From a virus (Duplodnaviria; Heunggongvirae; Uroviricota; Caudoviricetes): a DNA stretch of 11,791 bases. The stretch is from IMG/VR virus record IMGVR_UViG_2703718799_000033; one strand, given 5' to 3'. Of this stretch, positions 3,001 to 6,000 are shown in pieces; positions within the stretch are counted from its first letter, which is position 1; each line of letters starts with the position of its first letter. Position numbers: made by a program.

Positions 3001-6000
3001 CACATACGACCCAGTACATAACCGGATGCCGCCACGGGAATCTTTCGGGACCACCAGGATATAAACTTTTTTCCTTGCTGTACCGGTGAAACTCCGTCAT
3101 CACATCGTCAATGGTGACGCCAAGAACCATCTTGCTGTCTTTGCACCACTTGATGAATTGCCCTGGCGACGGCCAGAACGGAGAATCACTGGCGCGGGCG
3201 TGGCGCATACCAGCAGAAACCTGTTCACGGGTTCGGATCCCCCCTTCGGCAAACGCAGCAATCCACTGCTGTTTTGCAGCAACTTCCTGCTCTGGCGTCT
3301 TCAGGTTGGTTACCACTGCCGCCGGAAACAGTTGTTTCAACTGTTTGAAAAGGGCATCAACAAGCCTCTCTGCTGACATGTTCACTACGTTGTCATTGTT
3401 GACGTACTGATGCTCATAACCTGACATGCGAGAAAGAGCTTCTCCGTCACGGTTTTGTATTGCGGTAAAAACGTTGTTCACAAGAAATCCTCCCATGCTT
3501 CAGGGCTGTTCCAGTGCGGAACGTTGTTATCAGGTAATGTTGATTGCTTCTGTCTGCTAATCTGCAGCCGCCTTGCCAGCTTCTGCTCCCACTGCGCCTG
3601 ATGGTATGCCTTACCCTCAGCCATCCAGTAAATTCTGAACTCTGCAAGTTCCTGTGCCGTTGGCAGACTGTCCAGGTAGATCCCCTGCAATGAGCTTTTC
3701 CGAAGAAAGTCATCTGATGGTTGCCATTGTTCATGCATGACAAATTTGCCTAATTGCCCTGGCCCACCAGGAGGAACAAAGTTATTCATCACGGCGTTGT
3801 TTGCGCCGGGGTCATGAGGCACAGAATCCCCGCTTTTTGTCCTGCTCTCCCTCTCTTGGTTAAATGACTGGTTATATGACTGGTTCTGGATCCCGTTTTT
3901 GGGATCATTCAACATCCCGTTTTTGGGATCATTCAACATCCCGTTTTTGGGTATATTCCCGTTTTCGGTAACATTACCGTTTTCGGGTTCATTACCCCCT
4001 TCCCGGTTGCCTTTAATGTTCCCGTTTTTGGTTATATTAAGAGAGAAAACCCGCACTCTTTTCGTCGCTCCCTTTCTCTCTCCGGTATCTGAAATAAGCC
4101 CCATTTTCATGAGCGATATAAGCCCGGCCTGCACGGTTTTTTTATTCAGGCAAGTGTCTTTAACGAGGCGTTCTATGCTGGGGTAGCAGAGGTTATATTC
4201 ATCGGCTCTGTCAGCCATCGAGAGCAGTATGAGCTTTAATGATGAGCTACCTGGATCTGTCTCCCAGGCCCAATCTGTTGCATGTCTGCTCATGATTAAT
4301 CTCCGCTATCAGCTTGAGTGTTGTGGGGAGGAATTAATCATGATCTGCTTAATCTCTGCCCTGATGCGACGGTTTGATTCCATGGTGCACTCAACACAGT
4401 GTCCGTTGTAAACCCAGCGTTCACTGTCATGTCCATGCTTACATGGTTTTCCGGTGTAGTAGCGTTTAAGTCCGCGCTTTGCGGCATCAATACGTGTAAT
4501 GATTTCCATGGTAAGCCCTGTTATTAGTATTGGGATTACGGTCATTTTGTGCTGACACAAAAAAAAGATCAACCAGATTTGGTTTTTTATTACCTTTGAG
4601 GTACGAATAGATATGAAAAGACCGCCGGGTGGCGGTCTACAGAGGGTTGTAGCTGGATATCATGAGTAGAAGAAGTATGCCAGTTCTGCTTTTGAGCGCA
4701 GCCATTGTCTTGTTTTACAGGCTTTAAAAAGCCCATTCATCAATACCTTACCTGGCATTTTGCGCTTACCTGTTAAGTGAGTCTGGATATAGTGACTCGT
4801 TGTTCCGGCTTCCTGTGCGAAGGCTTCACGCTCATCCGGAGTAAGTGCAAGCCAGTGCTTTTTGAAATCGAAATGTCCGTTATCGCTCATAGCTATTGCC
4901 TGATATTTATTTCAGATAATAAATATTCACCCATAAGGTAACAAAAATCAAGGATAGTTACCTATGAGGTGCATTTACCTGTTGGGTAATATTGCTTTAA
5001 ATTGAATCATCTACTGATTCATATATGAGGCGATTTTCCAGAAAATGAAAAGTATCCAGGACGTCCGCAGGCAAAATCTCAACGACTTGATCGACCGTGA
5101 ATTCAATGGTGTTCAGACGCGGATGGCAGAAAAACTTGGAACTCAGGCAAATCTGGTAAACCGCTGGGCTCTTGGCAAGAAGGTTATCGGCGACCAGGTT
5201 GCACGAAAAATTGAAGCTGCCGCCAATAAACCCCGTAACTGGCTTGATATTGATCGCTCGCTTTCTCAGGAGGGTTTTCAGCCTGTCGGCCCGAGCGATA
5301 TAGGTCAGCTGGCGGCTCACAACCTGGAACGCTGGATGAGCGAAAGCCGCGACCTTTCAACGCAGGGAAAACTACACCGCGCATCCGGCGTCGCCCAAGT
5401 GACAATCAGCCGCCTGTTAAACAATGAGGTCAGCGTTTCCATTTCCACCCTGGAGAATGTTGCATCCGCATTCGGGCGTCACGGCTATGAATTACTGATT
5501 CACCCGCACGACCCTGCGACCATCAACTATGATCGCTCGCGCTACGCATTGTTACCCGAAACCGAGAAAGCAAAGATCGAAAGTTACATTGAATTTGTCA
5601 TCAACCAGAACGAAAAAAACAAACAATAAAATCATATTTTTCAGTAAGTAAGCCGCCAGAAGGCGGCTTTTTTATTGCCTATTCGATTACCTAATGGGTA
5701 ATTTTTTTAACTCATATCTATTGACATCAAACCAGATACGCATAATTATTACCTCAACGATAACAGGCCGAGGCAACAAGTTATGCAGTGGAAAATCATC
5801 AACGGTTGGTACTGCGTTACTGCATGCGGATTCATGAGCTGGAAGTTCCGCACCTTACAGGAAGGTATTAAGTGGGCTTTCGTCAGCAAAGAAGCTCGCG
5901 ATGTGGCCAACGATAACGAGATATGGGAGGGCTGATAATGAACGTTAATCAGCAGAAAAATCTTCAAAAAATCATGCTGGCATTCGACAAGGACTACCGC

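What the first reader, a model, noticed from the sequence alone, without database searches (positions are those of the whole stretch)
5783..5935. Unlisted 50-aa ORF as the first gene of the pL-like operon
Between the pL-like promoter and the first listed gene lies a 50-codon ORF with a plausible RBS, a stop 2 nt before the next start and ordinary protein-like composition. In lambdoid phages the first pL gene is a small regulator (N); this peptide is not obviously arginine-rich like N, so its role is open. The antisense 72-aa ORF over the same DNA (5749..5967) is less plausible.
Basis: seen in the sequence. Interest (0 to 1): 0.45.

Follow-up and report, generated by a model that had tools for sequence, protein, structure and literature searches.

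The report
Conserved small early phage gene
The 50-codon reading frame is a real, strongly conserved and already annotated gene of unknown function: the first gene switched on from the repressor-controlled early promoter of an epsilon15/phiV10-type prophage, and it is not a lambda N-type regulator.

Summary
The ORF at 5783..5935 (+) exists as described and is a real protein-coding gene. The window is the early region of a Uetakevirus (epsilon15/phiV10-like) prophage. The peptide is 100% identical to phiV10 p39, 79% identical to epsilon15 gp37, matches PHROG 898 end to end, and is annotated in RefSeq as hypothetical protein WP_001198620.1.

All 94 related loci first fetched keep the frame. Ten of ten polymorphisms among 83 loci that encode the identical peptide are synonymous. 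pN/pS is 0.15 in the sense frame and 0.38 in the antisense frame. The antisense 72-aa ORF is a wobble-matched shadow frame.

The gene always follows the two-HTH repressor, its terminator and a TTGACA-17-AATTAT promoter flanked by ATTACC-N5-GGTAAT operator-like palindromes. It abuts the next cistron and precedes a Gam-like/RecE/RecT/AlpA operon.

It is not N-like: no arginine-rich motif, no boxA, a leader of about 27 nt, and no terminator found inside the operon. It has no detectable similarity to lambda CIII or Kil.

AlphaFold predicts a small beta-beta-beta-alpha domain at moderate confidence, without a specific fold match. Function remains unknown; my best guess (about 0.35) is a small protein-binding early factor.

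The parts
5045..5629 (+). Prophage repressor (Rep) with two HTH domains; homolog of phiV10 p40, epsilon15 gp38 and SPC32H Rep
   Evidence: PHROG 8 and Pfam HTH_3. 100% identical to phiV10 p40.
5650..5677 (+). Intrinsic terminator ending the repressor transcript (8-bp stem, 6 GC pairs, T-run)
   Evidence: Scan. Annotated as a terminator in phiV10.
5686..5702 (.). Distal operator-like palindrome ATTACCTAATGGGTAAT (perfect ATTACC-N5-GGTAAT)
   Evidence: 13 matches in the window against 4.1 expected, and 0 of 200 shuffles reach 13. The same motif at the same offset is annotated as repressor binding sites in epsilon15 and is kept in all relatives examined.
5721..5749 (+). Early-left (pL-like) sigma-70 promoter: TTGACA, 17-nt spacer, AATTAT
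   Evidence: 10 of 12 consensus match. Present at the same offset in relatives. Activity is not shown here.
5748..5764 (.). Proximal operator-like site ATTACCTCAACGATAAC overlapping the -10 and the inferred transcription start
   Evidence: Two mismatches to the palindrome. Conserved at -29 to -35 from the ATG in every relative examined.
5770..5773 (+). Shine-Dalgarno GAGG, 9 nt upstream of the ATG
   Evidence: Read from the sequence. GAGG or GGAG is kept 5-9 nt upstream of the start in nearly all relatives listed.
5783..5935 (+). The finding: 50-aa protein gene (phiV10 p39, epsilon15 gp37, SPC32H_040, PHROG 898, WP_001198620.1); predicted beta(2-6)-beta(9-14)-beta(18-22)-helix(25-49)
5749..5967 (-). 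Antisense 72-aa shadow ORF; not a gene
   Evidence: Its third codon positions coincide with those of the sense frame. pN/pS is 0.375 against 0.147. It has no conserved start and variable boundaries, and no PHROG or Pfam match.
5938..6237 (+). Second cistron, 99 aa (phiV10 p38, epsilon15 gp36, PHROG 856); probable distant Gam-type host-nuclease inhibitor
   Evidence: PHROG 856. Pairwise E 2e-4 to a PF06064 Gam protein in the same slot of L095, and 2e-5 to the 101-aa protein of L096.
6234..7055 (+). RecE-like PD-(D/E)XK exonuclease (DUF3799), same operon
7052..7933 (+). RecT single-strand annealing protein, same operon
7983..8231 (+). AlpA/excisionase-like regulator, downstream in the same direction

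Best explanation
SHOWN. 5783..5935 is a real protein-coding gene. It is the E. coli Uetakevirus copy of phiV10 p39 / epsilon15 gp37 (PHROG 898). It is the first cistron of the early operon that starts at a promoter sandwiched between two operator-like palindromes, directly downstream of the repressor gene and its terminator. It abuts the next cistron (-4 to +4 nt in relatives) and precedes a Gam-like protein, a RecE-like exonuclease, RecT and an AlpA-like protein. It is a core gene of this phage lineage. It is found wherever the repressor family is found, and it is better conserved than the repressor or the gene after it.

INFERRED. The gene is silent in the lysogen. It would be the first product made after derepression or infection, from a transcript with a leader of only about 27 nt. 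The product would fold into a compact three-stranded sheet plus one helix. The sheet (residues 1-25, nearly invariant) would be the functional surface, and the C-terminal tail is free to vary.

COMMITTED GUESS (probability about 0.35). It acts stoichiometrically as a small protein-binding factor. The target would be a partner conserved across Enterobacterales hosts, or the phage's own anti-nuclease/recombination module. In that sense it resembles the small pL-operon peptides of lambda (Kil, CIII, Gam), not the RNA-binding antiterminator N.

The confidence figure below is for the shown and inferred parts, not for the guess.
For: Identity:
- 100% identical to phiV10 p39 and 79% to epsilon15 gp37.
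- Full-length match to PHROG 898, E 1.9e-38.
- Annotated by PGAP as WP_001198620.1.
- Present in 558 of 5426 complete E. coli genomes.

Coding:
- The frame is intact in 94/94 loci.
- Sense pN/pS is 0.147 with pS 0.50. Variable columns are 10/10/30 by codon position.
- 10 of 10 polymorphisms are synonymous.
- Homologs down to 36% identity keep W3, G8, Y10, T13, G16, S19, F22, W31, F33 and A38.
- The RNA fold is unremarkable, z = -0.5, and there is no Rfam match.

Operon position:
- Promoter and operators as mapped; the same architecture is seen in 16 relatives.
- Synteny Rep - ORF50 - variable slot - RecE - RecT - AlpA holds in distant relatives.
- No strong + strand terminator lies between 5783 and about 9300.

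Conservation rank: ORF50 is 70-85% identical where Rep is 41-78% and the next gene 44-53%.

Fold: the AlphaFold model from 21 diverse sequences gives beta-beta-beta-alpha, pLDDT 75.8.

Against nucleic-acid binding as the conserved activity: family pI ranges from 5.5 to 9.4, with only 1-3 Arg per protein.
Against: - No experiment or publication on this protein was found.
- No homolog with a known function turned up at any sensitivity: 1.84 billion representatives, Pfam, NCBIfam, PHROGs and PDB sequences.
- The structure model is only moderately confident. A first run on a shallower alignment gave a single helix at pLDDT 58.8.
- Anti-host accessory genes are usually variable between related phages, whereas this gene is core. 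That fits a regulatory role at least as well.
- Promoter, operators and transcription start are consensus or homology inferences, not measured.
Confidence: 0.85

Rival explanations
1. The peptide is a small nucleic-acid-binding regulator with a beta3-alpha fold of the AP2 / integrase arm-binding / dsRBD type. It would act on phage DNA or RNA, for example by modulating early transcription, read-through of the conserved terminator behind the cro-like gene, or excision.
For: - The predicted beta-beta-beta-alpha topology has fold neighbours that include AP2 domains, dsRBDs, HPF, release-factor domains, HicB N-domains and RAD52.
- hhalign places residues 12-22 (VTACGFMSWKF) on the sheet of the arm-type DNA-binding domain of this prophage's own integrase family, P = 0.008.
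- Residues 1-39 carry a net charge of about +4.
- The first genes of early operons in lambda, Mu, P2 and 186 are nucleic-acid-binding regulators (established knowledge).
- A strong terminator about 20 nt after the cro-like stop is kept in 9 of 11 relatives with different stem sequences. Some read-through mechanism may therefore exist.
Against: - hhalign probability is only 5% over 11 columns, and the comparison was chosen after eyeballing. BLASTP finds nothing.
- There is no Pfam hit to PF13356, AP2 or similar even at E = 1.
- Family pI varies from 5.5 to 9.4 and basic residues are few.
- No conserved RNA structure or nut-like site was found nearby.
Confidence: 0.25
2. It is the functional and evolutionary counterpart of lambda N: an antiterminator that binds a nut RNA and modifies RNA polymerase.
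For: It occupies the same position as N: first gene after a repressor-controlled promoter that lies downstream of the repressor gene and its terminator. A tR1-like terminator follows the cro-like gene.
Against: - It has 2 Arg in 50 residues and no arginine-rich N-terminus. Lambda N begins MDAQTRRRERRAEKQ.
- It is predicted to be folded, not disordered.
- There is no boxA within 1 mismatch anywhere near the gene.
- The leader is only about 27 nt, and only about 21 nt separate the cro-like stop from its terminator. That leaves no room for nut sites.
- No N-family PHROG or Pfam hit.
- No strong terminator was found inside the early-left operon.
Confidence: 0.03
3. The real gene is the antisense 72-aa ORF (5749..5967, - strand), as annotated in Enterobacter phage Tyrion (gp39). 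The + strand frame would then be its shadow.
For: The antisense frame is open across the region in all relatives. One phage record annotates it.
Against: - The antisense frame shares third codon positions with the sense frame, so its openness follows from the sense composition.
- pN/pS is 0.375 against 0.147 for the sense frame.
- Loci with an identical sense peptide give 17 different antisense translations.
- Its start codon and boundaries are not conserved: the open stretch runs from 75 to 208 codons, and several relatives have no ATG.
- It has no family match.
- It would be transcribed against the early promoter.
- Tyrion also carries the intact sense ORF.
Confidence: 0.02
4. Only the act of translation matters. 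The ORF would be a leader or upstream ORF that protects the transcript from Rho or delivers ribosomes to the next cistron, and the peptide itself would have no function.
For: It is the first cistron and lies very close to the next start in every relative, from a 4-nt overlap to a 4-nt gap, whatever the next gene is.
Against: - Purifying selection on the amino-acid sequence is strong. The 25 N-terminal residues are nearly invariant across Escherichia, Salmonella, Klebsiella, Enterobacter, Citrobacter and Erwinia elements, while synonymous sites are half saturated.
- Core and turn residues are conserved out to 36% identity.
- A coherent predicted fold is obtained.
- Known arrest peptides are conserved at the C-terminal end. 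Here the C-terminus is the variable part.
Confidence: 0.03

Closest known systems
phiV10 p39 (YP_512294.1), epsilon15 gp37 (NP_848245.1), SPC32H_040; PHROG 898; RefSeq WP_001198620.1
   Same: Identical (phiV10) or 79% identical (epsilon15, SPC32H) peptide. Same length and same position between the repressor and the gp36-like gene. Full-length HMM match.
   Different: Nothing of substance differs; this is the same gene. All these records call it a hypothetical protein, so membership gives no function.
Lambda N (first gene of pL)
   Same: Positional equivalence: repressor gene, then terminator, then repressor-controlled promoter, then first cistron.
   Different: Half the size. No arginine-rich motif, no nut boxA/boxB, predicted to be folded rather than disordered, no sequence or profile similarity, and no terminators to overcome in its own operon.
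Lambda Kil (47 aa) and CIII (54 aa), small peptides upstream of gam-bet-exo in the pL operon
   Same: Peptides of about 50 aa, expressed from the repressor-controlled early-left promoter, directly upstream of a Gam-type gene and a recombination pair. Kil overlaps the start of gam much as this ORF abuts the Gam-like gene.
   Different: No similarity by BLASTP, hhalign or Pfam: CIII, Kil. Kil and CIII are described as helical peptides (literature knowledge). This protein is predicted as beta3-alpha.
Arm-type DNA-binding domain of P4-family tyrosine integrases (Pfam PF13356), and AP2-type beta3-alpha DNA-binding domains in general
   Same: Same predicted topology of a three-stranded sheet followed by a helix. 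A short shared pattern (G-x-Y-x-V-x-x-x-G-x-x-S-[WF]-[KR]-[FY], then [ST]-L-x-E-A) that hhalign also picks.
   Different: Not statistically supported (probability 5%, 11 columns). The strand and loop between sheet and helix are missing. pI is not consistently basic. No Pfam hit.

Membership tests
epsilon15 gp37 / phiV10 p39 family (PHROG 898) | Full-length sequence match to the family profile | tested here: met
   phrog_898, E 1.9e-38, residues 1-50 on profile positions 1-50 of 50. All 24 aligned members hit it.
epsilon15 gp37 / phiV10 p39 family (PHROG 898) | Near-identity to named members | tested here: met
   100% to phiV10 and 15 other Escherichia phage records; 79% to epsilon15, SPC32H and SPN1S.
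epsilon15 gp37 / phiV10 p39 family (PHROG 898) | Conserved position: after the two-HTH repressor and its operators, before the recombination genes | tested here: met
Lambda N-type antiterminators | N-terminal arginine-rich RNA-binding motif | tested here: not met
   Two Arg in 50 residues and none in the first 22. Lambda N has 5 Arg within residues 6-11 of the mature start.
Lambda N-type antiterminators | nut site (boxA plus boxB hairpin) in the leader and after the cro-like gene | tested here: not met
   No boxA within 1 mismatch near either place. Leader about 27 nt. No unusual RNA structure, z = -0.5. No Rfam hit. About 21 nt between the cro-like stop and its terminator.
Lambda N-type antiterminators | Sequence or profile membership in an N family | tested here: not met
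   No Pfam, PHROG or NCBIfam N family hit.
Lambda CIII (Pfam PF02061) | Match to the CIII profile or sequence | tested here: not met
   Lambda CIII itself scores 1.5e-30 on PF02061. None of the 24 family members hits it at E <= 1. BLASTP gives no alignment. hhalign probability 0.5%.
Lambda CIII (Pfam PF02061) | Inhibition of FtsH with stabilisation of a CII-type activator | not testable with these tools
   Needs biochemistry. The 66-aa gene after the cro-like gene (4309-4509, -) is PHROG 1081 of unknown function.
Lambda Kil | Sequence similarity to Kil | tested here: not met
   hhalign probability 0.2%. No Pfam hit.
Lambda Kil | Filamentation or FtsZ inhibition on expression | not testable with these tools
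   Needs an expression experiment.
Integrase arm-type DNA-binding domain (PF13356) / AP2-like beta3-alpha domains | Profile-level homology | tested here: not met
   hhalign of the 24-sequence family against 117 PF13356 domains: probability 5.1%, P 0.0077, 11 columns. Against the single domain: probability 1.3%. No Pfam hit.
Integrase arm-type DNA-binding domain (PF13356) / AP2-like beta3-alpha domains | Three-stranded antiparallel sheet packed on a C-terminal helix | tested here: inconclusive

The most novel reading that the evidence does not exclude
The peptide founds an undescribed class of phage early factors. It would be a 50-residue, tryptophan-rich beta3-alpha mini-protein that is the obligatory first product of Uetakevirus early-left transcription and that reprograms a conserved host machine. 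One candidate target is RNA polymerase or Rho, allowing read-through of the conserved terminator behind the cro-like gene. Another is a protease or nuclease that governs the lysis-lysogeny choice. In either case it would fill the role that N, CIII or Kil play in lambda, using an unrelated fold.
Probability: 0.2. Interest if true: 0.55.

Novelty: already known. Interest (0 to 1): 0.25.

Why it matters
As a gene call this is routine. The ORF is already annotated in phage and RefSeq records and belongs to a PHROG family of unknown function.

Its modest interest lies elsewhere. It is a core gene that is unusually well conserved. It would be the first thing an epsilon15/phiV10-type phage makes from its repressor-controlled left promoter. 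It is carried by about one in ten complete E. coli genomes. Nothing is known about what it does. A deletion or pull-down experiment in phiV10 or SPC32H would be cheap and could reveal how these phages manage early gene control or host takeover without an N-type system.

The analysis also flags a probable strand mis-annotation in phage Tyrion. It further shows that gene callers sometimes skip this ORF.

Tried and rejected
- **Lambda CIII.** By eye the N-terminus (MQ.xI..GW) and R.L..G.K resemble CIII. BLASTP, hhalign and Pfam give nothing. Rejected.
- **Lambda Kil.** No similarity. Rejected as a homolog and kept only as a positional analogue.
- **Integrase arm-binding domain.** hhalign reproduces the eyeballed alignment, but at 1-5% probability, and BLASTP gives nothing. 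Not accepted as homology.
- **Membrane peptide.** Residues 5-20 are only moderately hydrophobic, and distant homologs lose the hydrophobicity. The model is a sheet. Rejected.
- **Cysteine or metal motif (CxxxC).** The cysteines are not conserved in distant homologs. Rejected.
- **First AlphaFold run.** The 15-sequence alignment gave a single low-confidence helix. It was superseded by the run on a more diverse alignment.
- **Family and structure-sequence searches.** Pfam, NCBIfam, PDB-sequence and other-PHROG searches gave nothing.
- **RNA and nut elements.** Rfam, boxA and RNA-fold checks for an RNA or nut element were all negative.
- **Positional replacement test.** I looked downstream of nine further distant repressor homologs for a different, known gene in the slot. 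Every one carries an ORF50 homolog, including one locus where the gene caller missed it. No replacement was found.
- **Literature.** Searches by phage names, locus tags, accessions and the peptide sequence found no study of the protein.
- **LexA box.** The search near the antirepressor gene found no convincing site.
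Full report
**What the window is.** A 401-base query around the finding matches Escherichia phage phiV10 at 97.8% identity. It also matches a set of Escherichia, Salmonella, Klebsiella and Enterobacter phages of the genus Uetakevirus, the epsilon15-like podoviruses.

The annotated records and family scans of the window's ORFs give this map:
- Replication genes on the - strand: DnaT-like 3478-4293 and lambda-P-like 2696-3496.
- A cro-like gene, 4660-4890 (-).
- A divergent two-HTH repressor, 5045-5629 (+).
- On the + strand after the repressor: the 50-aa ORF; a 99-aa protein (5938-6237); a RecE-like PD-(D/E)XK nuclease (6234-7055); RecT (7052-7933); an AlpA/excisionase-like protein (7983-8231); a 38-aa membrane peptide; a PerC-like activator; a DNA methyltransferase; and an antirepressor (9823-10509).
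- On the - strand, an integrase (10541-11791).

An identical copy lies in the chromosome of E. coli F1005, NZ_OY754353.1.

**Checking the observation.** The coordinates and features are as stated.
- ATG at 5783 and TGA at 5933-5935.
- GAGG at 5770-5773, 9 nt upstream of the ATG.
- The next start is ATG 5938, 2 nt after the stop, with its own GGAGG.
- The antisense 72-aa ORF is also there.

Length alone proves nothing. The window holds 73 ORFs of at least 50 aa, against about 49 in shuffles.

**Is it a gene?** Yes, on five independent grounds.
1. It matches PHROG 898 over the whole profile, E 1.9e-38. The antisense translation matches nothing.
2. Every one of the 94 related loci first fetched keeps an intact frame of 47-50 codons.
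3. Across 24 distinct DNA versions, the first 38 codons vary at 10, 10 and 30 columns for codon positions 1, 2 and 3. Sense pS is 0.50 and pN is 0.074, a ratio of 0.147.
4. Among 83 loci that encode exactly the window's peptide there are 12 DNA versions with 10 polymorphic sites. All ten are third-position synonymous changes. Only 17% of possible single changes would be synonymous, giving a nominal P of about 2e-8.
5. A profile search of 1.84 billion representative proteins finds homologs down to 36% identity. These keep the same length and a pattern of core and turn residues: W3, G8, Y10, T13, G16, S19, F22, W31, F33 and A38.

The DNA around the ORF is not alignable between phiV10-type and epsilon15-type phages. 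The ORF itself is, at 80% identity over exactly window 5782-5927. The transcript has no unusual predicted structure (z = -0.5) and no Rfam match.

**The antisense ORF.** Its third codon positions coincide with those of the sense frame. It therefore inherits the periodicity and tends to stay open.
- Its pN/pS is 0.375.
- It has no conserved start and its boundaries wander, with open stretches of 75 to 208 codons.
- Loci with an identical sense peptide give 17 different antisense translations.

It is a shadow frame. Phage Tyrion's gp39 is annotated on this strand, although Tyrion carries the intact sense ORF. That is probably a mis-annotation.

**Not new.** The ORF is annotated as a hypothetical protein in phiV10 (p39), epsilon15 (gp37), SPC32H (040) and other phages, and by PGAP as WP_001198620.1. 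The region occurs in 558 of 5426 complete E. coli genomes.

**Is it the first gene of a repressor-controlled operon?** The evidence supports this.
- The repressor gene ends at 5629 and is followed by a strong terminator at 5650-5669.
- Next come a perfect palindrome, ATTACCTAATGGGTAAT (5686-5702), and a promoter TTGACA-17-AATTAT (5721-5749).
- A second, imperfect copy of the palindrome (5748-5764) covers the -10 and the inferred start.
- The palindrome is over-represented in the window: 13 matches at up to 3 mismatches against 4.1 expected, and 0 of 200 shuffles reach 13. The best copies cluster at three intergenic regions.
- In epsilon15 the same sites are annotated as repressor binding sites.
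- The promoter-plus-operator arrangement recurs in 14 of the 16 relatives examined. In all 16 an operator copy lies 28-35 nt before the ATG. The two exceptions (L098, L101) carry an extra 60-70-aa gene upstream of the ORF.

The inferred leader is about 27 nt. No strong + strand terminator follows until beyond the methyltransferase gene. Promoter activity, repressor binding and the transcript start are inferences, not measurements.

**Synteny and conservation.** Distant homologs (36-57% identity) were located on contigs from unrelated samples. Contigs found through divergent repressor homologs (52-65% identity) were also examined.
- In every case the small gene follows the two-HTH repressor. 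In three elements an extra small gene or a 200-nt insert intervenes (L098, L101, L110/L111).
- It touches the next cistron. In the relatives checked, the junction ranges from a 4-nt overlap to a 4-nt gap.
- It lies upstream of a DUF3799 nuclease, RecT and an AlpA-like gene.
- The gene in between varies: the 99-aa PHROG 856 protein here, a Pfam Gam protein in L095, a GamL-family protein in L105, proteins of 319-355 aa in others, and nothing in L100.
- One locus (L109) has the homolog although its gene caller skipped it.

Relative to the window, the small protein is 70-85% identical where the repressor is 41-78% and the next gene 44-53%. The first 25 residues are nearly invariant from Escherichia to Erwinia elements. 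It is therefore a core gene under stronger constraint than its neighbours.

**What kind of protein?**
- There is no Pfam, NCBIfam, PDB-sequence or second PHROG match, even at permissive thresholds.
- AlphaFold on 15 close sequences gave an uninformative helix at pLDDT 58.8.
- On 21 sequences that include the distant homologs it gave strands 2-6, 9-14 and 18-22 followed by helix 25-49, at pLDDT 75.8 and pTM 0.50. This agrees with the invariant NG and CG/SG turns and with the alternating hydrophobic pattern.
- Foldseek against the PDB and against viral models finds nothing significant.

**Comparison with candidates.**
- *N.* The peptide has no arginine-rich motif. It has 2 Arg, a family pI of 5.5-9.4, and is predicted to be folded. 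No boxA or nut-like element was found, and there is little room for one. It also has no terminator to overcome in its own operon. N-like function is close to excluded.
- *CIII and Kil.* These are the roughly 50-aa peptides upstream of gam in lambda. They show no similarity to this protein, so any relation is positional only.
- *Integrase arm-binding domain.* A resemblance seen by eye to the arm-type DNA-binding domain of P4-family integrases, including this prophage's own, is reproduced by hhalign. It reaches only 1-5% probability. I do not accept it as homology.

**How it most likely works.**
- *Shown:* it is a conserved coding gene and the first cistron after the operator-flanked promoter.
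- *Inferred:* it is repressed in the lysogen and is the first product after derepression. It is made together with a probable Gam-type nuclease inhibitor and the RecE/RecT pair. It folds into a small sheet-plus-helix unit whose invariant sheet is the working surface.
- *Guess:* it acts by binding a conserved protein partner, either a host factor or the phage's own early module (about 0.35). The main alternative is a small DNA- or RNA-binding regulator (about 0.25).

The variable pI and the scarcity of basic residues argue mildly against nucleic-acid binding. The core, non-accessory nature of the gene and the conserved terminator behind the cro-like gene argue mildly for a regulatory role. No literature bears on this.

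**Verdict.** The feature is an already annotated hypothetical gene of a known phage family. Interest is low to moderate: an uncharacterised, widespread, core early gene that would be easy to test.

Noticed in passing
window 5686-5702, 5748-5764, 4974-4990, 4926-4942, 2643-2659, 2581-2597, 4589-4605; relatives L002-L104: The operator palindrome ATTACC-N5-GGTAAT is kept in all relatives although their repressors fall to 41% identity. In the window it clusters at three places: the early-left promoter, the rep/cro divergent region, and a third intergenic region (2581-2659). The third region has a promoter-like site on the - strand, upstream of the DUF1064/resolvase-like gene.
   Followed up: partly
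L002 2335-2501, and L084, L087, L088, L092, L095, L096, L100 upstream of the ORF: Two leader architectures exist. The window type has a leader of about 27 nt. The epsilon15/Klebsiella type has an extra roughly 70 nt, with a small hairpin followed by a T-rich stretch and a third operator 29 nt before the ATG. That suggests an additional roadblock or attenuation layer in those phages.
   Followed up: no
window 4619-4638 (- strand): A strong intrinsic terminator lies about 20 nt after the cro-like stop, before the replication genes. It is kept in 9 of 11 relatives with different stem sequences. This is a tR1-like arrangement that implies read-through, antitermination or a downstream promoter. An operator-like site (4589-4605) lies just beyond it.
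   Followed up: partly
window 5938-6237 (+): The 99-aa second cistron (PHROG 856, no Pfam hit) is weakly similar to a Pfam Gam (PF06064) protein in the same slot of a relative (pairwise E 2e-4). It is also similar to the 101-aa protein of another relative (2e-5). It is probably a divergent Gam-type RecBCD inhibitor. The slot between the small gene and RecE is a variable region.
   Followed up: partly
L003 2599-2811 (Enterobacter phage Tyrion gp39, YP_009287771.1): Tyrion's gp39 is annotated on the antisense strand of the conserved small gene, while the intact sense ORF (2695-2844) is unannotated. This is a likely strand mis-annotation.
   Followed up: yes
window 3900-3947: A tandem direct repeat, TGGGATCATTCAACATCCCGTTTTTGGG x2, lies inside the DnaT-like replication initiator gene. 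It is iteron-like and may be part of the origin.
   Followed up: no
L109 4241-4393: The public gene call for this E. coli contig skips the small-gene homolog, although it is intact (hmmsearch E 6e-32). Small genes of this family are sometimes missed by callers.
   Followed up: yes
P0001, P0005, L091: Natural variants exist: an internal duplication of NGWYCVTACGF (59 aa), a QE duplication, and a chimeric C-terminal tail in phage SPNIS2. The tail occurs in two types (…EVANDNGIWG and …KTEMDMGVSK), which suggests recombination breakpoints inside the 3' end of the gene.
   Followed up: no
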